A stretch of 64,000 nucleotides of DNA from Actinomycetes bacterium (lineage in GTDB: Bacteria; Actinomycetota; Acidimicrobiia; Acidimicrobiales; Acidimicrobiaceae), in assembly GCA_021850605.1 (NCBI GenBank), contig JAJZLQ010000081.1, positions 13,679 to 77,678 on the forward strand. The letters run 5' to 3'. Shown in pieces: positions 51,241 through 64,000 of the stretch (positions are counted from its first letter, which is position 1; each line of letters starts with the position of its first letter). The translations under genes and the position numbers were made by a program. Under the pieces are notes generated by a model. That model saw only the letters and a program-made list of their open reading frames with translations. It ran no database searches and was not told the DNA's origin.

Positions 51241-52005
51241 ATGGATGTTGGCCGGCTGCCTGAGGGTGACGATAGGAGCCTCTGCGATCGTGTTGTGCGC
51301 GAACTCGGCTCAGCGATCGTGCGCGAGGAATTAGCGCCAGGTGGATGGTTTTCCACCGAGGCCGCTCTGGGCGAGCGCTTCGGCGTGAGCAGAAGCGTGA
51401 TTCGCGAGGCCCTGAAGCGCCTGGAGGGCAAGGGCCTGGTGGAGGCCAAGCCCAAACGAGGGATCATGGTCCTCCCGCGAGATCGCTGGCACCTACTGGA
51501 TCCCGAGGTTGCCTCCTGGCGTTATCGGGAGCTCCGTGAACCGCGGCTCCTACTCGAACTGGTGGGCTTCCGCGAGGTGATCGAACCTGCGCTCGCGGCT
51601 GCCGCCGCCTTGCAGGCAGACGAAAACGATGTGAACCAACTCCGCGAATTGGCCATTGCCATGCGGGAGGCAGGGTCGAGAGCGGCCGAGCTAATCAAAG
51701 CCGACCGTGCCCTGCACCGCGCCGTAGCCCGGATTGCCGGCAACAGCCTCATGTATGCCGCTTTCGCGGCCCTCGAGCCGGGGATGGCCGAGCTCCGTAG
51801 CGTCGGCTCGGAGTCGCGCCTGCGCGGTCCGGGCCACAACGAGGATCATCACCTGCTGGTGGAAGCGATTGCCAACGGCCAGCCCGAGCTTGCGAGGGAG
51901 ACGATGGCACGTATCGTCCACGCTTCACGCCTGCAGGTGATGGAGTTCTTCGACCGGAGCCGGCTGGGCAGCCGGCGAAGCACGTCACGGGGCGGGATGG
52001 TCTGA
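51241..52005 (+). CDS. FadR/GntR-family regulator
   Basis: FGVSRSVIREAL, GLVEAKPKRG, FCD domain; TATAAT just upstream. Confidence 0.92.
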   Translation: MDVGRLPEGDDRSLCDRVVRELGSAIVREELAPGGWFSTEAALGERFGVSRSVIREALKRLEGKGLVEAKPKRGIMVLPRDRWHLLDPEVASWRYRELREPRLLLELVGFREVIEPALAAAAALQADENDVNQLRELAIAMREAGSRAAELIKADRALHRAVARIAGNSLMYAAFAALEPGMAELRSVGSESRLRGPGHNEDHHLLVEAIANGQPELARETMARIVHASRLQVMEFFDRSRLGSRRSTSRGGMV

Positions 52006-52051
52006 GGCCTTCGGGGCGCGTCGGGCGGGTCGTCATTTTCAAGGGGGGCAA

Positions 52052-53002
52052 GTGAATCTGCCAAGTCAGGTCGAAATCGTGGAGGTGGGGCCGCGCGACG
52101 GCCTCCAGAGCCTCCCTCAGCACTTCTCCACGGAGAAGAAGATCGCCATGATCGAGGCGCTCGCATCCACCGGAATCAGCCGCATCGAGGCGACCAGCTT
52201 CATGCGCCCGGAGACGGTCCCACAGCTGGCGGACGCCGAAGCCGTCTTTGCCGGGCTACGGAGCCAGAACGGTTGCACCTACAGGGCCCTGGTGGCCAAC
52301 CGGCGCGGAATGGAGCGCGCATTGGCGACGGGCGTCCGAGAGGTGGTGCTCTTGGCCACTGCGAGCGAGCGCTACGTAAAGATGAATCAGAACACCAGCG
52401 TCGAAGGCAACCTGGCGGCACTGCAGCTGGCCGTCGAAGCAGCTGGAGAAAGTTCGATGCGGCTGGTTGGCGCGATCGCGATGTCGATCTTCTGCGCATA
52501 CGAGGGGCCGGTGCAGACTGACCGCACCTTGGAAATCGTGCGCCGCTACGCGGAAATGGGCGTCACCGAACTTTCCTTGGCGACCAGTACCGGAGTAGAG
52601 GGACCGGCCGAGGTTTACCGCCTGGTATCGGTGGTGCTTGATGCGTACCCGGCAACCAAGGTGGGCGTACATTTGCACAATGCCAACGGCATGGCGCTGG
52701 CCAACGCCATGGCGGCCATGCAAGCGGGTGCGACCGCTCTCGAGAGCTCGATCGGCGGGATCGGCGGCGGGATCCGGCTTCCCGGCGGCGACCAGGATCA
52801 TGGGAATGTCGCGACGGAGGACCTGGTGCATCTTTGTCTCGAGCTTGGAGTGGAGACTGGGGTGAGCCTCCCGGTGCTGCTCGAGGCGTCAGGGGAAATC
52901 GAAGCATTGCTCGGAATCCCTTTCAAGTCCTACGCGGCTCGAGGGGCTACGAAGGATGGCTTGATGTCCAGTGCCAGGACGGCCGGCTGGGAAGGTAGGT
53001 AG
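52052..53002 (+). CDS. HMG-CoA-lyase-like DRE-TIM enzyme
   Basis: EVGPRDGLQ, HLHN, GNVATED; GGCP replaced by GGGI. Confidence 0.85.
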   Translation: MNLPSQVEIVEVGPRDGLQSLPQHFSTEKKIAMIEALASTGISRIEATSFMRPETVPQLADAEAVFAGLRSQNGCTYRALVANRRGMERALATGVREVVLLATASERYVKMNQNTSVEGNLAALQLAVEAAGESSMRLVGAIAMSIFCAYEGPVQTDRTLEIVRRYAEMGVTELSLATSTGVEGPAEVYRLVSVVLDAYPATKVGVHLHNANGMALANAMAAMQAGATALESSIGGIGGGIRLPGGDQDHGNVATEDLVHLCLELGVETGVSLPVLLEASGEIEALLGIPFKSYAARGATKDGLMSSARTAGWEGR

Positions 53003-53004
53003 AA

Positions 53005-54225
53005 GTGGCTGGAAGCGGTGAGCTCATGGGATCCGGGCAAAAACCCCTTGACGGTATTCGGGTTCTGGATCTGTCCAACCTTCTTGCCGGTCCCACCATG
53101 GCAATGCACTTGGGGGACTTTGGCGCCGACGTGATCAAGGTGGAGCAGCCCGGATGGGGCGACGAGCTCCGACGCTGGGGCCTGTCCAAGGACGGGGTCC
53201 CTCTCATGTTTAAGCTGGTGAACAGGAACAAGAGGGTTGTAACCGCTAACATGCGGGTTCCCGAGGGCCAGGATATCGTGCGCAGGTTGGCCGCGACGGC
53301 CGACGTGGTCATAGAAAACTTCCGACCCGGCACCCTTGAGCGCTGGGGGCTGGGCTATGAGCAGCTGTCAGATATCAATCCTCGTCTGGTGATGGTACGC
53401 GTCACCGGCTACGGCCAGACAGGACCGTCTTCGCAACGTCGCGGATTCGGGACCATCATCGAGGGGATTAGCGGATTCGCGGCACTGACGGGTATGCCTG
53501 GAGGGCCGCCGCTTCTACCCTCCTTCGGCTTGGGGGATGCCAGCACGGCAATCTTTGGCGCCTACGCAGCGATGCTCGGACTCTTTCATGCGCAACGCAC
53601 CGGCAAGGGCCAGTACGTCGACCTTGCCCTGTACGACGGCCTTATCATGTTGCTCGGCTCGCACATCATCGACTATGACCAGCTAGGGTTCGTGCAGCCG
53701 CGCCTGGGAAGTCGGACCGCGTTCGTGGCGCCTCGCAACATATACCCCACTGGCGATGGGGAGTGGGTCGTTATCGCCGGCTCCACGCAGAAGACTTTTC
53801 TCGCCATTCTCGATGCACTCGACCTGCAGGAGCTCGGGCAGGATCCGCGCTTTGCGACCAACGCCGACCGCCTGCAGAACGTTGAGGTGCTCGATGAGCT
53901 GATCACGGGGCGCCTGATGCAGCTGACGCAGGCGGAGGTTCTAAAGCGCCTCGAGGATTCCGGCGCGGCGGTAGGGCCAATCTACGACGTCGAAGACGTC
54001 CTGGGGGACGAGCAGATGAAGCATCGCAACGTGGCCGTCGCCGTGGAGGACCCCGAACTCGGGACGATCCGGATGCAGAACGTCGCCGTCAGGCTCTCGT
54101 CCACCCCCGGGGAGGTCCGTTGGAGCGGACCCGGGATCGGCGCCCACAACAGCGATGTGCTGGGTGGCGAGCTCGGTTTCAGCGACGACGAACTCGATGA
54201 CCTGCGTGCGAGGGGTGTCATCTAG
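53005..54225 (+). CDS. family III CoA-transferase (CaiB/BaiF)
   Basis: GADVIKVE, NRNKR, ENFRPG, ITGYGQ-like VTGYGQ, catalytic GD. Confidence 0.93.
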   Translation: MAGSGELMGSGQKPLDGIRVLDLSNLLAGPTMAMHLGDFGADVIKVEQPGWGDELRRWGLSKDGVPLMFKLVNRNKRVVTANMRVPEGQDIVRRLAATADVVIENFRPGTLERWGLGYEQLSDINPRLVMVRVTGYGQTGPSSQRRGFGTIIEGISGFAALTGMPGGPPLLPSFGLGDASTAIFGAYAAMLGLFHAQRTGKGQYVDLALYDGLIMLLGSHIIDYDQLGFVQPRLGSRTAFVAPRNIYPTGDGEWVVIAGSTQKTFLAILDALDLQELGQDPRFATNADRLQNVEVLDELITGRLMQLTQAEVLKRLEDSGAAVGPIYDVEDVLGDEQMKHRNVAVAVEDPELGTIRMQNVAVRLSSTPGEVRWSGPGIGAHNSDVLGGELGFSDDELDDLRARGVI

Positions 54226-54650
54226 GCGCTTTCAAGTGGCATCTCCGTGGTGCTGGCCCCGCGATCCGCGTGGCCGCAAGACCAGGAGGCGCGTCGATCC
54301 AGGGGGCGGATCTTCGCGGCGGGCAGCGACCACACGATCCGATCTGTAGTCCCCCTCATTTCGAGAACTCGCCCGCGGCGTGAGCGCGGCGGGCGCCTCG
54401 AGGGCCCCCGGGCCTGCCTGTACCCTTAAGGCACCTTTACCGGTGGTGCCACGCCATCGGCACCTGACATCGGAGGAGAGACGCACCTCGAGAGACGTTC
54501 GTGACAAGGGTATATGCCAGTCGTGTGCCTCCTTCATCAGCGCGCCGGTTCAGTCGACCGGAGGGTCGCGCGCAGTGAGTGGCCGCCGGGCGCCTTTGCA
54601 GGTTCGCGCCGGATGCTTAGGGCGGTCGAAGCATAAGGATCTATTGGGCC

Positions 54651-54857
54651 ATGGCCCACATCAAGATGCCGGGCTGGGTCACGCTCGAATAAGAGGTATT
54701 CGGTGCTCCCCACGACCCGGTGTTGATGCTCATGATTGGGCTGGGTGCCCAGCGGGTGGCTTGGCCGCGGCCGCTCTTTGAGCGCTTGGCGGCAAAAGAC
54801 CGGTTCGTGATCGCCTCCGACAACAGGGACTTGCAGACTCTCTTCGACGATCAATGA
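54651..54857 (+). pseudogene. truncated alpha/beta hydrolase
   Basis: MAHIKMPGWVTLE*EVFGAPHDPVLMLMIGLGAQRVAWPRPLFERLAAKDRFVIASDNRD. Typical hydrolase N-terminus with an in-frame TAA, ending after DNRD. Confidence 0.75.
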
Positions 54858-54923
54858 CGGTTGGGAGGTGCTCTCGCCGGTCGTAGAGGTCGCGATGAGA
54901 GGAGACCTCCCGCTGGCGACCGA

Positions 54924-55159
54924 TTAGCACTTGGGGCAGAGGACCTCGCCGATTATCTGCTCGATGCCGATCTCGGCCACGGGCCCCTGGCGTTGGTAGT
55001 GAAGGACTCTCGTGCCCTTCAGTCCGACGACGGCGTTGCAGATGTCGTTAGGATCGACAAGGACGGGGGAGCTCGTAAAGGCTTTGTATTTCTTCACAGC
55101 TTGAGAAGCTACAGGTTCCCCCGTCGCTCCTGTTCCCAGGTGGACTTCATTACCGAGCC
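54924..55159 (-). mobile_element. ISL3-family remnant (left end and 57-aa transposase N-terminus)
   Basis: Begins GGCTCGG at 55159. ORF 55097-54924 reads DPNDICNAVVGLKGTRVLH...EVLCPKC*, resembling an ISL3 N-terminus up to the first CxxC. Confidence 0.6.
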
Positions 55160-55224
55160 AGCTTTCCGAGAGCCTCAGACCCCGCTAAAAACTGAAGAAC
55201 CAGCAAACCGTGCAACTCGTTCCC

Positions 55225-55319
55225 GGCGCAACCCTTACGCTCGTCCACGCATGGGACACGACCGCCCTGTACCGCGCAACGGCTTCGCGACCTCGCCCGC
55301 GGCACCGAAACCGGATTAA
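55225..55319 (+). pseudogene. possible decayed tyrosine-integrase C-terminus
   Basis: With frameshifts reads GATLT-LV(A)RMGH..ALY-ATA, like the integrase motif GATL.EL..RMGH...ALIY.HA; points toward the tRNA-Lys 3' end. Confidence 0.35.
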
Positions 55320-55397
55320 ACACAAAGGTCACACCCATGGTGCATTCTGGTGATGCGCGTTTGTTGGTGCGATATTGTCGGCGGTGGGTACGACTTT

Positions 55398-55472
55398 TGG
55401 TGCGCCCCCTGGGATTCGAACCCAGAACCTGCGGATTAAGAGTCCGTTGCTCTGCCGTTGAGCTAGAGGCGC
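55398..55472 (-). tRNA. tRNA-Lys(CTT)
   Basis: GCGCCTC...GGGGCGC-ACCA, anticodon loop CT-CTT-AA. Confidence 0.95.
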
Positions 55473-55608
55473 ATCGGAACAATTAACTTAGCAGGCAGCG
55501 GCCGGGGGCAGTCCAATCGTCGAAATCGGCAATCATGAAAGCGCCTGTAGGGCGGGTCCTGCGCGCGGGCGCCCAGCGACTCTTACCGATCTTGATGTAA
55601 TGAGGAGT

Positions 55609-55686
55609 TGGGGTGACCGAGGGGACTCGAACCCCCGACCTCCAGGGCCACAACCTGGCACTCTAACCGACTGAGCTACGGCCACC
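55609..55686 (-). tRNA. tRNA-His(GTG)
   Basis: G-1 plus GTGGCCG...CGGTCAC-C-CCA, anticodon loop TT-GTG-GC. Confidence 0.95.
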
Positions 55687-55812
55687 GCGCGCCTACAGCT
55701 TAATCGTGGCGTGACGCGACTCTGGCCAGCGGAGGTGAAGCTTTGGCAACTGAGCGCCGATGCGGCGCCGTCTTTTGGGCGGATGGGCGGACATTAGATT
55801 GGTAACCAACTA

Positions 55813-55885
55813 GCCCCTGTAGCTCAGTGGATAGAGCAACTGCCTTCTAAGCAGCAGGTCGTAGGTTCGAATCCTACCGGGGGCG
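55813..55885 (+). tRNA. tRNA-Arg(TCT)
   Basis: GCCCCTG...CGGGGGC-G, anticodon loop CT-TCT-AA; followed by CAA, not CCA. Confidence 0.94.
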
Positions 55886-55891
55886 CAATAT

Positions 55892-55914
55892 AGGACTAGC
55901 TCAGGGCTGGTCCT
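55892..55914 (+). terminator. hairpin after tRNA-Arg
   Basis: AGGACTAGC-TCAGG-GCTGGTCCT followed by TCTT. Confidence 0.55.
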
Positions 55915-56219
55915 TCTTCGATTCTCGAGATTGACTACATCCGGGCGGCATAATGGTTGTCCGGTCTTCCGTGCACCTGGACGATCCTGCACCACGACAC
56001 CAATCGACCCAACTCTGGGCCCGCGAGCCCGTGCGTTGGCGGGTCCACGAATCTGTCGGTTAGCGGTGGGGAGCATGCGGATCGATCGCGTCCCGCAAGC
56101 GGCGGGCCCGCACGAGAACTTCGAGCGCGGCGAACCTCCTGGTGCAGAGGTCAAGGCGCTGACCCGTGGCGGGCTAGTCTCCGCGAGAGAACGGGCAAAA
56201 ACATGGAACGGAGAAGTGG

Positions 56220-56630
56220 ATGAGCGACGCATTTAGCAAAGAGGAGCGAGCCGCGATGAGGGCAGCAGCCTCCGAAGCAAAGGCAGCAAAGGCGGGTGCG
56301 GATATGGAAGCTGCATGCCTCGCTGCAATTGCTGCCATGTCGGGTAAAGACAGAGAGTTGGCAGAAACACTCCATGACTTGGTCAAGGAGCATACCTCTC
56401 TGGGGGCGAAGACGTGGTATGGAATGCCCGCTTATACCAACGGCGACGGCAAGGTAGTCGTATTCTTCCAGAGCGCCGCCAAGTTCAAGGTGCGATACGC
56501 CACCATTGGATTTCAGGAAGCAGCGCACCTCGACGAGGGGAACGTCTGGCCGACCGCGTATGCCGTGTCCAGCCTGACTGCCACCGACCAGCAGCGGTTG
56601 GTGGTACTACTCAAGAGAGCCGTCGGTTAA
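56220..56630 (+). CDS. DUF1801 (YdhG-like) protein
   Basis: KTWYGMPAY, VVVFFQ, RYATIGF, WPTAYA. Confidence 0.8.
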   Translation: MSDAFSKEERAAMRAAASEAKAAKAGADMEAACLAAIAAMSGKDRELAETLHDLVKEHTSLGAKTWYGMPAYTNGDGKVVVFFQSAAKFKVRYATIGFQEAAHLDEGNVWPTAYAVSSLTATDQQRLVVLLKRAVG

Positions 56631-57086
56631 GGGGCAGTTCCGTGCGCTGGGGTCTTTGGGGGGCCGCCCGCACAACCATTGCCCTGGCCCGTCGGCGTTC
56701 CGACAGTTAGCCGTATACGGGCTGGCTCTTGCAGGAGGGTGATGAGATGTGCCTTCCAGACGAAGCGGGGCGCGGATGGCCATACCAGACTTATGTCGAG
56801 TCGAGCCGAGGTGGTATGGCCAGGTAAGCCATTCGGCGTCGCTGATACAAAGAGTTCGTGACCCTGAACTGGCTTTTCGTGCGCCGCGTTGGGGCCCGGA
56901 CGAGTGTGCCGCCGATCTGCAAAGCGGGAACTTTTCGGGGTGGTTGCCGTGCCGTCTAGACCCGGAAGAGCGTTGCGAACGCCAAGGTCTGGCACGTCGA
57001 TTCTGGAGCAGGTACGCAGGGCGAATACTTGCTCGAATCGACGGGGTTCGGCACGTGCGTATCGATATTAAATGGGCTCCAGGACA

Positions 57087-57114
57087 TTGACTGGAGAAGC
57101 CATAGCTATATAAC
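57087..57114 (+). promoter_or_regulatory. housekeeping-sigma-like promoter of the E1 cassette
   Basis: TTGACT-N16-TATAAC, then GGAGG RBS and ATG at 57152. Confidence 0.55.
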
Positions 57115-57151
57115 ATCGGCCACATTCCATCAAGGGGGGCGGAGGTGCCGT

Positions 57152-58126
57152 ATGGACCAGAAGATCAAAATCGAGCTCTATAGGACGATGGTTCTGATCC
57201 GCAGTTTCGAAGAGGCGATACTGCGCGATTATCATGCTGACAAGAAGCCTGCCTGGGATATCGGGGCTGGGCTGATACCAGGCGAGATGCACCTTTCCGC
57301 CGGCCAGGAGCCGGTAGCGGCGGGGATATGTGCCAATCTCAGCTCCGGCGATGGTATCACAGCCACCCACCGTCCGCACCATCTTGCAATTGCTCACGGA
57401 GTGAGCCTCAAGGCACTGGCGGCGGAGATATTCGGCCGGGAGACCGGGCTCGGCAAAGGGCGAGGCGGGCACATGCATCTTTTTGACCCGGCGAGCCACT
57501 TCTCATGCTCGGGGATAATCGCAGAGGGATATCCGCCGGCACTAGGGCAAGCGTTTGCCTTCAAGTGGAAGAAGACCCCGAACGTCATCGTGGCGGTGAC
57601 GGGAGAGGGTGCAGCGAACCAGGGAGCTTTCCACGAGTCGCTCAACCTGGCCGCACTTTGGAAGCTGCCCGTCGTCTTCGTGGTCGAGGACAATGACTGG
57701 GCCATATCGGTGCCTAGGCAAGCCTCGACCGCCATCGCGTCAAATGCCGAGCGAGCCGCCGCCTACGGAATTCCCGGAGAGCGCATCGAGGACAACAATG
57801 TCGAGGCGATCTGGCGCTCGGCCAAAACGGCGATAGACCGTGCCCGCTCTGGTGAGGGGCCATCGCTGCTCGAGATTCACACTGTTCGACTCTGGGGACA
57901 CTTTGAGGGGGATGCCCAGGCATACCGGGATGACCTGGATGCGGCGAGGGCTCACGATCCACTGCCGGCTTACGAGGCGCAGCTGATAGGTGAGGGATTT
58001 CTTGACGCCGCTCAAGCCGAGGCCATTAAGGAGGAGTCTGCTGCCGAGGTAGAGGCGGCCTTGTCCTTTGCGAAAGCCTCACCTTTGCCCGACGCGGCCG
58101 ATGCTCTCCGCTACGTCTTCGCCTAA
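57152..58126 (+). CDS. TPP-dependent dehydrogenase E1 alpha subunit (substrate unknown)
   Basis: HLSAGQE, GRGGHMH, TPP motif variant GEGA...EDND, GHFEGD. Confidence 0.93.
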   Translation: MDQKIKIELYRTMVLIRSFEEAILRDYHADKKPAWDIGAGLIPGEMHLSAGQEPVAAGICANLSSGDGITATHRPHHLAIAHGVSLKALAAEIFGRETGLGKGRGGHMHLFDPASHFSCSGIIAEGYPPALGQAFAFKWKKTPNVIVAVTGEGAANQGAFHESLNLAALWKLPVVFVVEDNDWAISVPRQASTAIASNAERAAAYGIPGERIEDNNVEAIWRSAKTAIDRARSGEGPSLLEIHTVRLWGHFEGDAQAYRDDLDAARAHDPLPAYEAQLIGEGFLDAAQAEAIKEESAAEVEAALSFAKASPLPDAADALRYVFA

Positions 58127-58150
58127 CACCGAGTTCAGGAGGAAATCGAA

Positions 58151-59185
58151 ATGACAGTTACCGAGAAAGAGGCGTCGCCTGCCATCAGGCGGCTCACCAC
58201 CTCGAAGGCGATGGTGGAGGGAATCGCCCAGGAGATGGAGCGCGATCCCTCTGTCTTTGTCCTGGGAGAGGACGTTGGCGCATATGGGGGCATTTTCTCC
58301 TCCACTACTGGTTTGCTCGAGCGGTTTGGGCCATCCAGGGTTATGGACACACCCATTTCCGAGACCGCCTTTATCGGGCTGGCTACAGGGGCGGCCACCG
58401 AAGGAATGAGGCCCATCGTGGAACTGATGTTCGTCGACTTCTTCGGAGTGGCGATGGACCAGATCTATAACCACATGGCGAAGATTCACTTCGAGTCGGG
58501 GGGAAATGTGAAAGTTCCCCTTGTCCTGATGACTGCGGTGGGAGGTGGGTACTCCGATGGAGCCCAGCATTCCCAGTGCCTTTGGGGGACCTTTGCCCAC
58601 CTTCCCGGGATGAAGGTGGTGGTACCCTCCAGCCCTGCGGACGCCAAAGGCCTGATGATCGCGGCTATCCGGGACGACAATCCCGTGGTCTATATGTTCC
58701 ACAAGGGGATAATGGGCCTGCCTTGGATGGCTCCCAACCCGCGGGCCCTGGCGCCTGTGCCTGAGGAGGCCTATGAGGTGCCGATAGGATCGGCTGCGGT
58801 GGTCCGCCAGGGCAACGACGTCACCATCGCTACCCTCTCGCTCTCCGTGCATCATTCCCTCGACGTTGCGGAGGAACTGTCTGCAGAGGGCATCGAGTGC
58901 GAAGTAATCGACTTGCGCACCCTGGTTCCTCTCGATCGCGCGACCATCCTCTCCTCGGTGGCCAAGACCGGTCGGCTGCTCGTCGTCGACGAAGATTACC
59001 AGTCCTTCGGACTCTCAGGTGAGCTGGCTGCAATAGTGACCGAGACCGATCCGCGCTTGCTCAAGGCGCCCTTCCTGCGAGTTGCCGTGCCTGACGTGCC
59101 AATTCCTTACTCACGCCCGCTCGAGTACGCCGTCTTGCCCACCAAGACACGCATTGCGGCGGCGGTTCGAAAGTTGGTGGGGTGA
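58151..59185 (+). CDS. TPP-dependent dehydrogenase E1 beta subunit
   Basis: GEDV, DTPISE, ELMFVDF, AQHSQ, IDLRTLVPLD. Confidence 0.95.
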   Translation: MTVTEKEASPAIRRLTTSKAMVEGIAQEMERDPSVFVLGEDVGAYGGIFSSTTGLLERFGPSRVMDTPISETAFIGLATGAATEGMRPIVELMFVDFFGVAMDQIYNHMAKIHFESGGNVKVPLVLMTAVGGGYSDGAQHSQCLWGTFAHLPGMKVVVPSSPADAKGLMIAAIRDDNPVVYMFHKGIMGLPWMAPNPRALAPVPEEAYEVPIGSAAVVRQGNDVTIATLSLSVHHSLDVAEELSAEGIECEVIDLRTLVPLDRATILSSVAKTGRLLVVDEDYQSFGLSGELAAIVTETDPRLLKAPFLRVAVPDVPIPYSRPLEYAVLPTKTRIAAAVRKLVG

Positions 59186-59415
59186 GTAACGAAGTCCGTT
59201 TTCCGGTGCTTTCCAGTGATCAGGCATCCGAGGGACTGGTGGCCACCTGGTTCGTTGCCGACGGCGAATCCGTCAAGACCGGTCAGCTCATTGCCGAGGT
59301 GCAGGTAGACAAGGTCTCCGCGGAGGTGCAAGCTCCCACGGCCGGTGTCATCCGCATCATTGCAGGGGCACAGGCGACCGTGAAGCAAGAGGCGCTCATC
59401 GCCGTCATCGAATAG
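59182..59415 (+). CDS. free-standing lipoyl-domain protein (77 aa)
   Basis: GESVKTGQLIAEVQVDKVSAEVQAPTAG with lipoyl-Lys in DKV; GTGA overlap with the beta subunit. Confidence 0.92.
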   Translation: MSNEVRFPVLSSDQASEGLVATWFVADGESVKTGQLIAEVQVDKVSAEVQAPTAGVIRIIAGAQATVKQEALIAVIE

Positions 59416-60088
59416 GACCGTTGCGTCCGATTGTGCCGAACGACGGGCGGACTATTTCCACGGGCGTGGCCGGTGCCGAGGTGAAGGTGACGGCTGCGGC
59501 AAGTCGGGTGCCTGGGGAGAAATCCTGCGTCTAATCCCGCTGTGCGTATTTGGGTGCCGCCGTTTCCGACGTCAACGCCGGAGGGAACCACCTTGGGTCG
59601 GGCCGGATCTGTTCGAGTCCGGTTCGAGCCAGAGGGAATCTCTCCTTCGGGTGAACCGGCCGGCGGCCCTTGGCGTTTTCCTGGCCTTACGCCGGGAGAC
59701 TGCGGCGATGACAATTGAGCGATTGATGACCCCGAAGCATGTCCTGCGGACCTCTCAAGCGGCCCGCTTGCAAGCTTTCCGGCCGGGTTGAGGCTGAAGG
59801 CAAAGACCGCCGCCGGCCTTGCTCTTGCTCGCTTCCCGGGAGCTTATGGCCGGGCCCTGGTAGGACGCTGATATGCCGGCTGTGGCGTTCCCGGATTGGA
59901 GGGAACGCGGGTCATCTATTCACGGCTCGTGCAGGCGGTGAGCGGTGTGAAGTGGTGGCCCGCATAGCTCCAGGTGATCATGGCCGGCCTGGCTCCTCGG
60001 ACGTCCCTGCACCGCCCCGTCGAGGGCGGCTATCCTCGCCGAGGCCCCCAGCTTCCCCCTGGCGGCGAATTCGCCGCAGCGGGCGGTG

Positions 60089-61615
60089 TCAATGTGTTTG
60101 GAAAATCCGGTAGTAGAGATCCTCCCCGTTGCTGGTGGGCAGGGGATCAGCCTTCACGAGCTTGTAGGTGCGCCGCCCATTTTCGTTGCGCTCCGCCCGC
60201 ATGAACAGGGCCGTATCGGGGTGTTCGAGTCGCAGGCTTTCCGCCAAATCGTAAAGATGCGTGACATAGACGACCTTTGAACCCGATTCGAGCAGCGCTC
60301 TTACGACCTGCCGTCCGATTTCCGAACCCTCTCGCTCATTGGTCCCGGCGAATGATTCGTTGAAGAGCAACAAGGACTTTGGAGATACCTCGTCGGCGAT
60401 CCGGCCCATCCTGCTCAGCTCTTCGTCAAGGCGGCCACTGGTCATAGACGGGTCTTCCTCTCGAATGAAGTGTGTGAAGATCCCCTTGGCGACTCCGGCA
60501 TCGAAGGACTGCGCCATCACAAACATTCCTGCTTGCATCATGAGTTGAGCCAGCCCGACGCTGCGTAGAAAGGTTGACTTTCCGCCGGAGTTGGGGCCGG
60601 TTATCACCACTAGCGGCTTCCCGTCGGCGTACGCACTGTTGCCCACCACCGGCTGCTCGAGCCGCAGCGCCAGGCATATGTCTCCCAGCTCCATAAAGGA
60701 GAGGCTTGGTGGATCCCAGCTGAGCGGACGAGGGACACAAAAAGTCTCGCCTTTTGCCACCAGGCGATCTCGGAGATTTAGGCACCCTACGTAGAAGCCC
60801 AGCTCCAGCCGGAGCATCGCGAAAAAGCTCCTTATGTGGTCTGCTGACTGCGCGGCCGCGTTGGCCACCAGGTTCAGACCGCGAGCCTCCAGCTCGCCCA
60901 CCGCCTGGGCACCTGCCTCATCACGCGGGGGGATCGAGAACGAGTAGGCATTCCTGGGGCCCAGTCCGAGCCGCTCTCGCCAGGCCGGTCGGCGGCTCCC
61001 GGGTGAGCGCAGGACGTAGTGTACGCCAACGTTCCCACCCCCGAGCTCGGCGCTCATGGTGACTCCGTTCTTGAACCGGAGCTGCTTCAGATGCCGCCTC
61101 ACGGTCTCGAAGTATTCATTGTCAAGCTCGAGCTGAAGCGTGCGGAAAAGATTTGAAAACCCCTCCGACTTGAACTCCGCAGCGTGCTGATCGGCTGTGC
61201 CTCTAACCCGCTTCAGCAGCTCCATGTACATGTCAAGCGCGCGCACTGCGCCTGCGAGTATCGAGGCCGGAAAGTGCGAACTCCAACCCCAAGAGGCCTT
61301 CTTGGGGACGTCCATCGCCTCTGTCGCAATGTCGTAGAGTTCCCGGACCAGTTCGGGTCGAGCAAGGCAATCCGCCAGGACGTGCTGGCGGTAGACGATC
61401 GCGGCTGGGTCATCCAGGCTGGCCAACATTACTCGCATGGCTACTTCGAAGAGGAACCTGTCGCCACGGCTCATGACGTTGAACAGCGTCACCAGCTCCA
61501 GGTCTTGGACGAGGTCGAGTTCGTGGGGCGACAGCTCCTGTTCCAGATCGAGCTTGCGAGGAAGTTCGGCGGGGATTTCGAAGTCGCGGTCTCGATACAA
61601 CAGCAGGGCTTTCAT
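60089..61615 (-). CDS. truncated MutS-family ATPase, subunit B (domains III and V type)
   Basis: TGPNSGGKST Walker A, LLLFNESF Walker B variant, VTHLY, GxR-T-YKL...PLPTS-G; no GxFxE domain. Confidence 0.9.
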   Translation of the reverse strand: MKALLLYRDRDFEIPAELPRKLDLEQELSPHELDLVQDLELVTLFNVMSRGDRFLFEVAMRVMLASLDDPAAIVYRQHVLADCLARPELVRELYDIATEAMDVPKKASWGWSSHFPASILAGAVRALDMYMELLKRVRGTADQHAAEFKSEGFSNLFRTLQLELDNEYFETVRRHLKQLRFKNGVTMSAELGGGNVGVHYVLRSPGSRRPAWRERLGLGPRNAYSFSIPPRDEAGAQAVGELEARGLNLVANAAAQSADHIRSFFAMLRLELGFYVGCLNLRDRLVAKGETFCVPRPLSWDPPSLSFMELGDICLALRLEQPVVGNSAYADGKPLVVITGPNSGGKSTFLRSVGLAQLMMQAGMFVMAQSFDAGVAKGIFTHFIREEDPSMTSGRLDEELSRMGRIADEVSPKSLLLFNESFAGTNEREGSEIGRQVVRALLESGSKVVYVTHLYDLAESLRLEHPDTALFMRAERNENGRRTYKLVKADPLPTSNGEDLYYRIFQTH

Positions 61616-63198
61616 CGGCTGAACCTTTCCCTAAGTCGCTCGTAGGTGACGCCGTGTTTTTCGGCGATCGCCATCGCGTAGGCCAAGCCGTTTGCATCTC
61701 CCCGAACAACCTTGTAGGTGCGTACCGCCGGGTCCTCGGGAACAATGGTCGAGATCATGCTGACCGTCTTGGGCAAAGTGGCCAGCTCGTCGATGAAGGT
61801 GACGTAGACGGCGAGGAGGTCGAGTTCGATGATCCGCTCGAGCATCCGCTGACCAAGAAAACGCGCATCGTGGAGCGTGGTCGAGCTGAACACCTCATTC
61901 AGCACGATGATGCTTTGGCTGGTCGCGGCCGACAGCGTCTCATGGATCCGCAGCAGGTCTGTCTCGAGCTTTCCGGCCAGGTTGTCGAGGTCCTCCTCTT
62001 TCTCGAACTGGGTGAAGAGCTGGTCGAAGTGGAATAGCCTGGCCCGCTTGCCCGGGACCGGGCAGCCAATGTTCGCCAAATGGTGCAATTGGGCAAAGGT
62101 GCGCGCGAAGGTCGTCTTGCCTCCCTGATTCGGTCCCGAGACGATGATTATGCGCTCCGGGTCCTTCAGGAAGAAGTCGTTTACCACGACGTTGTTCTGG
62201 GATCCGAGCTTGTTGGCCAGAGCGAGGTCGAAGGTGGCTTCCGCGAAGACCTCTTTGGACTGGTCCGTGACCTCCGGAAAGCAGAAGGGCAGGCCTGACG
62301 ATCCGATCGGCGCCAGGAATTCAAGGTAGGCGAGGTAGAACTGGACCTCCCGGTCGAAGACGTCGATCCTGGTATCGCGGAAATCGGCGTACTGGAGGCA
62401 GTATTTGTCGAGCGGCTCGAAGACTTCCGGGAAGAGTTTCGCCACCTGCTCGCTGATTTGGGCCTCGACGTGATTCATCTCGGGCAGATCACGGAATGCA
62501 ACCCGGTAATCCTTGGCGGCTCCACGCTTGAACCGATCGAAGGTCTGGAGGATCTCGGCGCTATAGTCCGACTCGCCTTCGTACCTGCTTACGGTTACGC
62601 GGCTGCCCTGGATTGTTACCAAGTAGACGACTCGGGCCAGATCTTCCACGCGCTGACGGGTGTCATCGGCCAGGTTCCGAAACTTCTCCGAGCTCACGTA
62701 GTCGTCCAAGCAGCGAAGGAAAGACTTCAGTCCCTGCGAGTGCAAATCCGAACCGGAAAGGACGCCCTGAAGGGTGGCTACGGCTTCGCAGTACGTTTTT
62801 GCGGCGTCGAGGAAGAAGCCCTCCCTTTGATACTTGTAGCGGACGGCGTGTGCGCCTCGCAAGTAAGAGCGCATCTTGCGCATCTGGGCGCCGAACCTCT
62901 GAACGCCGGAAATGAGGCTGCGGTCCTGGAGATCGCGGAAGATCTCCTGGCGGTAGGAGATCGTTTCCAGGTCCGGCGCCTTGGAGTAGAAGAAGGCGGC
63001 GAGGTCGTATTCCTCACGGCCCTTGCACAGGGACTCGAGCACCTGTCCCAGGTTTGAGTCCGTGAAGTACGGAGGCGGACCGGGCACCTCCTGTCCGCTC
63101 GCGTGCCCGTCGTACATCAGACTTGCAAAGGGCCTGACTCGTGAGTCGTCCTGGATAATTGGCAAACCGGCGGCGTCAGGAATCTTTGGAACGCTCAT
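61612..63198 (-). CDS. truncated MutS-family ATPase, subunit A
   Basis: SGPNQGGKTT Walker A, IVLNEVFSST Walker B variant, RTYKV...AYAMAIA. Start moved to ATG 63198; ATGA overlap with subunit B. Confidence 0.9.
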   Translation of the reverse strand: MSVPKIPDAAGLPIIQDDSRVRPFASLMYDGHASGQEVPGPPPYFTDSNLGQVLESLCKGREEYDLAAFFYSKAPDLETISYRQEIFRDLQDRSLISGVQRFGAQMRKMRSYLRGAHAVRYKYQREGFFLDAAKTYCEAVATLQGVLSGSDLHSQGLKSFLRCLDDYVSSEKFRNLADDTRQRVEDLARVVYLVTIQGSRVTVSRYEGESDYSAEILQTFDRFKRGAAKDYRVAFRDLPEMNHVEAQISEQVAKLFPEVFEPLDKYCLQYADFRDTRIDVFDREVQFYLAYLEFLAPIGSSGLPFCFPEVTDQSKEVFAEATFDLALANKLGSQNNVVVNDFFLKDPERIIIVSGPNQGGKTTFARTFAQLHHLANIGCPVPGKRARLFHFDQLFTQFEKEEDLDNLAGKLETDLLRIHETLSAATSQSIIVLNEVFSSTTLHDARFLGQRMLERIIELDLLAVYVTFIDELATLPKTVSMISTIVPEDPAVRTYKVVRGDANGLAYAMAIAEKHGVTYERLRERFSR

Positions 63199-64000
63199 GG
63201 TGTCTCCGGCGTCCAGGGCGGGCCAAGAGACGAGAGCAGCGCGGTCGTGGCTGGAACGGGAGGATCGATTTGGCGGCGCTGCTGATGTCGCCTGATGCTG
63301 GCGACGGTTGGGAGTGCTTCGGGTCGGACGCCGGTCTGGGCCGGAAAAGAAGCAGCCCGCAATTCCGGCTTGTCCAGCCGCAGGGACCTGGTCTGCCGAT
63401 TGGCTGTGCAGACGGCATACGGAGGTGGCGGCAGGGGTATCTTGGTCGCGCACGTAGTCGCCAAACATGAACCCGGCAGCGGCGGACCAAGGGCGGCACC
63501 AGTCGATGCGTCTGCGGCACGGATCCAATTCGGAGCGGCGCTGCTATGTCGCCCAGACGATTGGATGACTGGTTCGCTTTCGAGCCTCACGGAGGTGGGG
63601 AAAAGCCGAGAGCAATCCGGGGTTGATTCCAGCGACCGGTCATTTGGAATCTTCACTGCATCTCTCCTGCCAAACGAACTTGTCACTTGGTAGGAGCCAT
63701 CACCCTTGCGGGGCTTTAGTGGCGAGCTCCATCGCCGTTATGAGCCATGATAGTGCGCTTCGGCGCCTCGACCAAGGGCTTGCGATCCGCCCTGACCGGC
63801 AAGCACGTGGTTTCGACCAAATCGCCGGGGTTCGTCTCGGGCGCGGATTGACGTCGCCGGCCCGCCGCACCTTGGTGGAAGGAGAATGTGAGACGGTATT
63901 TATGTGCGTTGGCCTTGCTCCGGCCGGCCCGCTGCTGACAATTGGTTCCCGATTACCGGGCCCTTCGAGTCGGCTCCCTTGGCGCCAGGCGCGACGCACT

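What the first reader, a model, noticed from the sequence alone, without database searches (positions are those of the whole stretch)
57087..59415. E2-less dehydrogenase cassette: E1-alpha, E1-beta and a free lipoyl domain
Seen: a promoter and three coupled genes, with no acyltransferase core or E3 after them. The TPP motif is GEG...EDND rather than GDG...NN, and E1-alpha has an insert (KKPAWDIGAGLIPGEMH). Known: canonical complexes need E2 and E3; an alpha/beta/free-lipoyl cluster of unclear substrate is described in haloarchaea, and from memory this E1-alpha resembles that subfamily. Inferred: a distinct system in which the acyl group is loaded on a diffusible carrier, like glycine-cleavage H protein, and passed to an unlinked partner.
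Basis: partly seen in the sequence, partly recalled or inferred. Interest (0 to 1): 0.6.

Follow-up and report, generated by a model that had tools for sequence, protein, structure and literature searches.

The report
E1 dehydrogenase with free lipoyl carrier
This is a real and widely conserved three-gene unit (two subunits of a thiamine-dependent dehydrogenase plus a stand-alone 77-residue lipoic-acid carrier protein) of the same subfamily as the Haloferax volcanii oadhA/oadhB/oadhL operon, whose substrate has never been identified; here it most likely borrows the cell's general acyltransferase and lipoamide dehydrogenase.

Summary
E1-alpha (57152-58126), E1-beta (58151-59185) and a 77-aa lipoyl protein (59182-59415, GTGA overlap) are intact. 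No E2 or E3 relic lies in 59416-60088 or anywhere else in the window. It is not a broken E2: all 74 related loci that reach the third gene end it a few codons after the lipoyl domain. The lipoyl lysine is invariant and median dN/dS is 0.2.

The odd ThDP motif (GEG...EDN), the 10-residue insert and GHF mark a whole E1 subfamily. These marks are not tied to lacking an E2. Members exist with a fused E2 (with an AcoX-like gene), with a split E2 (lipoyl protein plus catalytic-domain-only protein) and with the lipoyl protein only.

In Rhodococcus opacus the added catalytic domain is of the housekeeping actinobacterial DlaT/SucB type, and Saccharopolyspora keeps a relic of one. I therefore infer that this E1 loads its own free lipoyl carrier, which is then discharged by the genome's single lipoyl-bearing DlaT-type E2 and re-oxidised by Lpd. 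The substrate is unknown.

This is a new member of a known but uncharacterised kind. First readers noted the same cassette in several other genomes.

The parts
57087..57116 (+). sigma-70-like hexamer pair (TTGACT / TAACAT, or TATAAC with a 16-nt spacer) about 40 nt upstream of the E1-alpha start; a GGAGG ribosome-binding site lies 6 nt before the ATG
   Evidence: 1 match found, 0.8 expected by chance: not significant; sequence read
57152..58126 (+). E1-alpha, 324 aa, ThDP-binding subunit of the OadhA/Aco-like subfamily (insert K-x-P-x-W/F-D-I-x-x-G at residues ~31-40, GEG, EDN, GHF-EGD)
58151..59185 (+). E1-beta, 344 aa (transketolase pyrimidine-binding and C-terminal domains; PISE glutamate present)
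59182..59415 (+). free-standing 77-aa lipoyl-domain protein (lipoyl-lysine in VDKV), translationally coupled to E1-beta by a GTGA overlap
59416..60088 (.). 673-nt non-coding spacer between convergent genes (lipoyl gene and the MutS-like gene at 60089-61615); no E2, E3, IclR or Lpl relic, no Rfam match; one weak terminator-like hairpin at 59659-59674

Best explanation
The three genes encode a self-contained E1-plus-cognate-carrier module of the OadhA/OadhB/OadhL subfamily, an offshoot of AcoX-AcoABC-type (acetoin-dehydrogenase-like) operons.

Shown: the E1 keeps the acidic and Asn Mg-ThDP ligands, both alpha histidines and the beta glutamate. The 77-aa protein is a lipoyl domain with an invariant lysine and is under purifying selection. 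The cassette is conserved as a unit while everything around it varies.

Inferred: the alpha2beta2 E1 cleaves its unknown substrate (a 2-oxo acid or an alpha-hydroxyketone/diketone) on ThDP and reductively acylates the lipoyl-lysine of the free carrier. The acyl-dihydrolipoyl carrier diffuses to an E2 catalytic core encoded elsewhere, here the single DlaT/SucB-type E2 on contig C108, which makes acyl-CoA. Less likely, the lipoyl-less E2 domain of the Kgd/OdhA fusion on contig C9 does this job. Lpd (on C108, next to that E2) re-oxidises the carrier with NAD+. LipB/LplA enzymes encoded elsewhere lipoylate it.

The E1 carries its own lipoyl domain probably because E1 enzymes are selective for their cognate lipoyl domain, whereas E2 cores and E3 are not. 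This would let a horizontally moving E1 plug into any host's E2/E3.
For: Domains and motifs.

Conservation: all 80 related loci have E1a-E1b, and all 74 that reach the third gene stop it right after the lipoyl domain. The lipoyl lysine is invariant in 74/74 and median dN/dS is 0.20.

Module behaviour: similarity to the nearest relatives stops at the cassette borders. The downstream neighbours of 59 loci carry 74 different Pfam families, none shared by more than 3. Only 6 of 400 sampled genomes of the phylum have a close homologue.

Lipoylation link: a lipoate-protein-ligase gene lies directly upstream in 12/80 loci. LipA or a ligase follows the cassette in Rhodococcus, Phaeobacter, Roseibium and Paracoccus.

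A partner acyltransferase exists in relatives: a catalytic-domain-only E2 (220-271 aa, no lipoyl domain, no PSBD) follows the lipoyl gene in R. opacus, Natrialba, Halobaculum, Phaeobacter, Roseibium, Paracoccus and Sphingomonas.

The R. opacus core groups (SH-aLRT 98) with housekeeping actinobacterial E2 cores, sister to this genome's C108 E2. Its best NCBIfam hit is SucB_Actino. A decayed piece of the same type follows the lipoyl gene in Saccharopolyspora oryzae.

The host has the parts: one lipoyl-bearing E2 flanked by lpd and a LipB/LplA-family gene (PF21948) on C108, a Kgd fusion, AceE, a second Lpd-like gene and LplA-like genes. Its other E1 genes (C115, C49) are also unlinked from any E2.

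The free lipoyl protein resembles the subfamily's own lipoyl domains (49-55%) more than the host E2's (32%).
Against: No biochemical datum exists for any member. In H. volcanii only pyruvate and 2-oxoglutarate have been excluded as substrates (PMC8305020, main text and supplement).

Nothing shows that the C108 E2 accepts this carrier. The link rests on one plasmid-borne gene and one relic.

The genome is a 91%-complete MAG, so a dedicated catalytic-domain-only E2 could sit in the missing 9%.

If the E1 docked on the host E2's PSBD it could in principle use that E2's own lipoyl domain, which would make the free carrier redundant. The cognate-domain argument comes from general knowledge of E1 specificity and was not tested here.

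The basal order of the E1-alpha tree (fused forms first) is unresolved.
Confidence: 0.55

Rival explanations
1. The acyl group on the free carrier does not go to CoA through an E2 core. The carrier hands it to another acceptor (water via a hydrolase, phosphate, or a biosynthetic enzyme), or serves only as a two-electron dithiol shuttle between E1 and Lpd. The cassette would then be an E2-independent oxidoreductase.
For: E2cat is absent from 80/80 close loci, and none is found elsewhere in this genome apart from the two housekeeping ones. Haladaptatus and H. volcanii also lack it next to the operon (PMC8305020 supplement). In Sphingomonas an alpha/beta-hydrolase gene follows the cassette. From established knowledge, some AcoC proteins (NCBIfam PRK14875) join a lipoyl domain to a hydrolase fold. 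The lipoyl protein's top NCBIfam hit is that model, though only marginally (48.7 against 46.5 bits).
Against: No conserved non-E2 partner appears next to the cassette in 59 loci. Relatives repeatedly pair the same E1/carrier with a CAT-fold E2 core, fused or split. R. opacus added a housekeeping-type core.
Confidence: 0.2
2. The free lipoyl protein is dispensable. The E1 docks on the host E2 through its PSBD and uses the E2's own lipoyl domain, while the small gene is an evolutionary leftover of a broken E2.
For: The subfamily does include fused E2 forms, so the small gene descends from an E2. The other E1s of this genome work without a lipoyl gene of their own.
Against: A leftover would not be kept in 74/74 loci with an invariant lysine and dN/dS near 0.2. 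It would not stay translationally coupled. It would not be accompanied by dedicated lipoate ligase or LipA genes.
Confidence: 0.1
3. Assembly or sequencing artefact: a frameshift or mis-join hides a full-length E2, or the downstream spacer is a decayed E2/E3.
For: The 673-nt spacer is long for a convergent gene pair, and the genome is a fragmented MAG.
Against: Independent assemblies, including isolate genomes (Ferrimicrobium, Amycolatopsis, Prauserella, Microbacterium, Terrabacter), show the same stop. No E2/E3 similarity appears in any frame of the spacer or the window.
Confidence: 0.02

Closest known systems
Haloferax volcanii oadhA2-oadhB2-oadhL operon (HVO_2595-2597; Wanner & Soppa 2002, J Bacteriol 184:3114; van Ooyen & Soppa 2007; as summarised in PMC8305020)
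   Same: Same gene order: E1-alpha, E1-beta, a short protein that is only a lipoyl domain, and no E2/E3 in the operon. H. volcanii OadhA (P0338) is 51% identical to the window's E1-alpha and shares the insert, GEG, EDN and GHF. Haloarchaeal and actinobacterial members fall in one clade apart from canonical E1-alphas. The substrate is unknown in both.
   Different: The haloarchaeal carrier is 86 aa with an acidic N-terminal extension, against 77 aa here. I assign P0338 to HVO_2595 from its 2002 accession and the literature, not from a locus tag. The phenotype reported for H. volcanii (nitrate-respiratory growth defect) is recalled from memory and has no counterpart tested here.
Acetoin dehydrogenase enzyme system AcoX/AcoA/AcoB/AcoC(/AcoL) of Cupriavidus necator, Pelobacter carbinolicus and Bacillus subtilis
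   Same: Heterotetrameric ThDP E1 with a lipoyl-dependent acyl transfer. The deepest members of this subfamily (L102, L103) have the order NAD-kinase-fold (AcoX-like) gene, E1a, E1b, full E2, and one lipoyl-only member (L105) keeps the AcoX-like gene. Characterised AcoA proteins are the best characterised matches of HVO_2595, at 40-41% (PMC8305020 supplement).
   Different: E1-alpha is only about 40-44% identical to canonical Aco/PDH-type E1-alphas (S. meliloti 43.8%). It has a changed active-site loop (GHF for GHS) and a 10-residue insert just before the conserved alpha-His. Here there is no AcoX, no AcoC and no AcoL. Acetoin as substrate is untested.
Actinobacterial PDH/ODH supercomplex, in which OdhA/Kgd carries a lipoyl-less E2 domain and uses the lipoyl domains of AceF/DlaT in trans (Corynebacterium glutamicum, Mycobacterium; established knowledge)
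   Same: It is a precedent, in the same phylum, for an E2 catalytic domain served by a lipoyl domain on another polypeptide. This genome has such a Kgd fusion (C9) and a single DlaT-type E2 (C108).
   Different: There the lipoyl domain stays tethered to a full E2 within one complex. Here it is a free 77-aa protein encoded with the E1.
Glycine-cleavage H protein and LbpA of the sHdr sulfur-oxidation system (free lipoyl carriers)
   Same: A small, free, lipoylated protein that shuttles between separate enzymes.
   Different: A different family: GcvH/LbpA belong to PF01597, whereas this protein is an E2-type lipoyl domain (PF00364) whose nearest relatives are E2 lipoyl domains.

Membership tests
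OadhA/OadhB/OadhL-type E1 + free lipoyl protein (H. volcanii HVO_2595-2597 type) | Gene order E1-alpha, E1-beta, stand-alone lipoyl-domain protein; no E2/E3 in the operon | tested here: met
   same order in Haladaptatus and as described for H. volcanii in the PMC8305020 supplement
OadhA/OadhB/OadhL-type E1 + free lipoyl protein (H. volcanii HVO_2595-2597 type) | E1-alpha is specifically related to H. volcanii OadhA rather than to canonical PDH/BCKDH/Aco E1-alpha | tested here: met
   51% identity to P0338 with shared insert, GEG, EDN and GHF, against 43.8% identity over 98% of the query and none of these marks for canonical S. meliloti E1-alpha; the subfamily is monophyletic, SH-aLRT 99 (H. 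volcanii itself was not in that tree, four other haloarchaea were)
OadhA/OadhB/OadhL-type E1 + free lipoyl protein (H. volcanii HVO_2595-2597 type) | Carrier is lipoylated and reductively acylated by the E1 | not testable with these tools
   Only indirect evidence: invariant lysine, purifying selection, and linked ligase/LipA genes in relatives
Canonical 2-oxoacid dehydrogenase complex (E1+E2+E3 operon) | E2 with lipoyl domain, PSBD and catalytic domain on one chain, encoded with E1 | tested here: not met
   it is met in the subfamily members L102 and L103
Canonical 2-oxoacid dehydrogenase complex (E1+E2+E3 operon) | GDG-x(24-27)-NN ThDP motif | tested here: not met
   It reads GEG...EDN; the acidic ligand and the second Asn are kept. 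One member (L105) reads GDG
Acetoin dehydrogenase enzyme system (AcoXABCL) | AcoX-like NAD-kinase-fold gene and AcoC/AcoL encoded with the E1 | tested here: not met
   No AcoX-like match in the window or the genome; it is present with L102, L103 and L105
Acetoin dehydrogenase enzyme system (AcoXABCL) | Acetoin-cleaving activity (acetoin:DCPIP oxidoreductase) | not testable with these tools
   No assay is possible; sequences of characterised AcoA proteins were not available for a tree
Glycine-cleavage H / LbpA free lipoyl carriers | GcvH fold (PF01597) | tested here: not met
   Pfam gives PF00364 only; the best solved relatives are E2 lipoyl domains

The most novel reading that the evidence does not exclude
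The cassette is a portable plug-in: an E1 that travels with its own cognate lipoyl domain as a diffusible adaptor, and so can graft a new substrate onto whatever E2 core and E3 the recipient cell already has. Splitting and then shedding the E2 core would be the evolutionary route to this portability. It would also show that lipoyl swinging arms need not be tethered for a 2-oxoacid/ketol dehydrogenase to work in vivo.
Probability: 0.4. Interest if true: 0.65.

Novelty: new member of a known kind. Interest (0 to 1): 0.45.

Why it matters
Textbook 2-oxoacid dehydrogenases depend on lipoyl arms tethered to an E2 core. This subfamily shows one E1 lineage working with fused, split and absent cores in Bacteria and Archaea. 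Its founding member in H. volcanii has had no known substrate since 2002.

The comparison made here does three things. It gives the family a sequence signature that would stop its routine mis-annotation as pyruvate dehydrogenase. It names a concrete partner to test, the DlaT-type E2 core plus Lpd. It also offers bacterial members that can be expressed and assayed (Rhodococcus, Microbacterium, Amycolatopsis, Phaeobacter).

Tried and rejected
- **Contig look-up:** I used the search for related loci, plasmid records and the genome search instead.
- **Relics in the flanks:** I searched both flanks for E2, E3, IclR or Lpl relics and found nothing.
- **Conserved partner:** clustering ORFs of 80 loci and tallying Pfam families of downstream neighbours gave only IclR or a lipoate ligase upstream.
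- **Second free lipoyl protein:** the 74-aa frame on contig C107 is a biotinyl (MKM) domain, not lipoyl.
- **Integration island:** I looked for island borders next to the three tRNA genes. There is no att-like repeat and no repeat of the flanks elsewhere, apart from tRNA-like matches.
- **H. volcanii OadhL:** a search for it through a haloarchaeal carrier did not list Haloferax. The E1-alpha route did.
- **Rfam:** nothing is found in the spacer.
- **Literature:** searches for a described split E2 or a bacterial free E2-type lipoyl protein found none. They turned up only the archaeal class of single-domain lipoyl proteins (PMC3904984) and the H. volcanii work.
- **Not attempted:** structure prediction, because the tools return no coordinates with which to place the insert.
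Full report
**What is there.** The window (contig C100 of a 2.56-Mb, 154-contig, 91%-complete MAG) carries three plus-strand genes.
- E1-alpha runs from 57152 to 58126 (324 aa, PF00676). It starts at an ATG preceded by GGAGG. The longer TTG frame from 57029 is not supported, because homologues align from residue 1.
- E1-beta runs from 58151 to 59185 (344 aa, PF02779+PF02780).
- A 77-aa protein runs from 59182 to 59415 and is a single biotin/lipoyl-type domain (PF00364, E=2.4e-15).

The last two genes overlap by GTGA. Lys43 of the small protein (VDKV) aligns with the lipoyl-lysine of solved E2 lipoyl domains. The promoter-like hexamers at 57087-57116 are no more than chance would give.

**No hidden E2.** The 673 nt up to the convergent MutS-like gene have no coding signature and no Rfam match. 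They show no similarity to E2, E3, IclR or Lpl proteins. An HMM of six E2 catalytic domains finds nothing in any frame of the 64-kb window.

A scan of one genome per species returned 80 loci with E1-alpha 67-79% identical. Nearly all are Actinomycetota; one bin each is labelled Gemmatimonadota and Acidobacteriota. All have E1-beta next. All 74 that extend far enough have the lipoyl ORF, which stops within a few codons of the domain's end. None has an E2 catalytic domain within 8 kb. The lipoyl lysine is invariant in 74/74, and median dN/dS over 187 pairs is 0.20. The gene is therefore a maintained free carrier, not a truncated E2 or an assembly error.

**A self-contained module.**
- Similarity to the nearest relatives begins at the E1-alpha start and ends at the carrier's stop.
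- The only recurrent neighbours lie upstream on the same strand: an IclR-type regulator in 36/80 loci, or a lipoate-protein ligase in 12/80. The window has neither.
- The first downstream genes of 59 loci carry 74 different Pfam families, none in more than three loci.
- In an even sample of 400 genomes of the phylum, only 6 have a close homologue, and none of the sampled genomes of the same order or family does.
- In the window the cassette lies between a tRNA-Lys/His/Arg cluster (55398-55886) and a MutS-like gene pair. No att-like repeats are present.

**The E1 subfamily.** They are a 10-residue insert (K-x-P-x-F/W-D/N-I/M-x-x-G) just before the conserved P-G-E-M/L-H-L histidine, GEG for GDG, EDN for ENN, and G-H-F-x-G-D for G-H-S-x-x-D. 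The clade comprises:
- the actinobacterial loci;
- Rhodococcus opacus plasmid pR1CP1 (67% identical);
- Roseobacter-group, Paracoccus, Roseibium and Sphingomonas plasmids (54-57%);
- haloarchaeal plasmids (50-56%).

The marks are absent from a canonical S. meliloti operon and from this genome's two other E1-alphas. The acidic residue and the second Asn, which bind Mg-ThDP in solved E1s (established knowledge), are retained. One member reads GDG, so the enzyme should be active.

H. volcanii DS2 OadhA was reached through a haloarchaeal homologue and a cluster look-up (P0338; accessions ADE05120.1 and CAD24096.1). It is 51% identical to the window protein and has all four marks. [quoted passage not shown] No substrate has been identified, and pyruvate and 2-oxoglutarate are excluded.

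**Three architectures in one subfamily.**
1. **Fused.** Two Actinomycetota genomes (L102, and L103 from the same class as ours; E1-alpha 58-61% identical) follow the same-type E1 with a normal E2: lipoyl domain, PSBD and catalytic domain in one frame of about 350-370 aa. They precede it with an NAD-kinase-fold, AcoX-like gene.
2. **Split.** R. opacus, Natrialba, Halobaculum, Phaeobacter, Roseibium, Paracoccus and Sphingomonas have the free lipoyl protein followed by a separate 220-271-aa 'E2'. This is only the catalytic domain, with no PSBD. LipA or a lipoate ligase often comes next.
3. **Lipoyl only.** This is the state of the window, the 80 loci, two Haladaptatus plasmids and H. volcanii. 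One basal lipoyl-only member (L105) still has the AcoX-like gene, as first readers noted in other genomes.

In the E1-alpha tree the subfamily is monophyletic (SH-aLRT 99). The fused members sit at its unresolved base. The haloarchaeal and alphaproteobacterial members form one branch and the actinobacterial members another (SH-aLRT 99). The motif and insert therefore belong to the E1 lineage, probably reflecting its substrate or channel, and not to the loss of E2.

**Who takes the acyl group here.** The split catalytic domains of haloarchaea and alphaproteobacteria cluster with each other, mirroring the E1 tree (SH-aLRT 81-86). They also fall in a wider group with the subfamily's fused E2s (SH-aLRT 91-93), but that group also holds canonical and other housekeeping E2 cores and its internal order is unresolved. 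This is compatible with fission of the subfamily's own E2 but does not establish it.

The R. opacus domain does not cluster with them. It groups (SH-aLRT 98; up to 58% identity) with housekeeping E2 cores of Terrabacter, Prauserella and Microbacterium. That group is sister to this genome's C108 E2, and the domain's best NCBIfam model is SucB_Actino.

In Saccharopolyspora oryzae (L053), which sits in the same weakly supported (SH-aLRT 85) group of seven as R. opacus in the E1 tree, a 31-residue relic follows the lipoyl gene. It covers the most conserved E2 motif and matches this same clade best. In at least one actinobacterial lineage, then, the cassette was joined to a copy of the host-type DlaT/SucB core.

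The window's genome has exactly such a core. C108 carries lpd, a 506-aa E2 and a LipB/LplA-family (PF21948) gene in a row. The genome also has a Kgd/OdhA fusion with a lipoyl-less E2 domain (C9), AceE (C58), a second Lpd-like gene (C132) and LplA-like genes. Its other E1 genes (C115 alpha/beta; C49 fused alpha-beta) also lie away from any E2, so sharing one E2 is the rule in this organism. The free carrier resembles the subfamily's lipoyl domains (49-55%) far more than the C108 lipoyl domain (32%).

**Mechanism proposed (inferred).** The E1 reductively acylates its own free carrier. The DlaT-type core transfers the acyl group to CoA. Lpd re-oxidises the carrier. The substrate is unknown. The AcoX link and the alcohol/aldehyde dehydrogenase neighbours in some distant members hint at a ketol or diketone rather than a classical 2-oxo acid, but the evidence is weak.

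The rivals are an E2-independent fate of the acyl-carrier, a dispensable carrier, and an artefact. They are weighed in their own sections; the last is effectively excluded.

**Verdict.** This is a genuine, selected, sporadically distributed three-gene module. It is a new (bacterial) member of the kind first seen in H. volcanii in 2002 and never explained.

Noticed in passing
window 55398-55886: Three tRNA genes (Lys-CTT and His-GTG on the minus strand, Arg-TCT on the plus strand) sit in a 2.9-kb stretch (54226-57151) with almost no coding signature, just upstream of the cassette. Two related loci (L072, L068) also have a tRNA next to their cassette.
   Followed up: partly
window 56220-56630 (+): A small ORF (136 aa) with a weak DUF1801 match has a 43%-identical homologue in a Georgenia locus (L075:9786-10232). 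It is probably a real gene, unrelated to the cassette.
   Followed up: partly
window 60089-63528 (-) and 63684-63745 (-): Two overlapping MutS-domain-V ATPase genes are preceded by a fluoride riboswitch (Rfam RF01734, 46 bits), as an earlier follow-up of this scan reported.
   Followed up: partly
window 51241-54225 (+): GntR/FCD regulator, HMG-CoA-lyase-like and family III CoA-transferase genes in a row, a separate small catabolic operon. No link to the cassette was found in relatives.
   Followed up: no
L053:10260-10634 (Saccharopolyspora oryzae): Decayed fragment of a DlaT/SucB-type E2 catalytic domain directly after the free lipoyl gene, a snapshot of the loss of the fourth gene.
   Followed up: yes
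L008 (bin labelled Gemmatimonadota) and L052 (bin labelled Acidobacteria): These cassettes nest tightly among actinobacterial ones (L008 with a Streptosporangiaceae bin, L052 nearly identical to a Nakamurella bin). This means either recent transfer or mis-binned contigs.
   Followed up: no
G000 contig C49:33434-35893 (L089:4435-6894, -): An 819-aa protein fuses E1-alpha and E1-beta in one chain with an N-terminal extension of about 160 residues. No E2 lies next to it.
   Followed up: no
G000 contig C107:322-546 (-): Free-standing 74-residue biotinyl (MKM) carrier frame near a contig end. It scored as Biotin_lipoyl but is not a lipoyl protein.
   Followed up: yes
L106:6048-6434 (Halobaculum halobium plasmid): The free lipoyl protein has grown to 128 aa through a long, acidic, Gly/Asp-rich N-terminal tail.
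   Followed up: no
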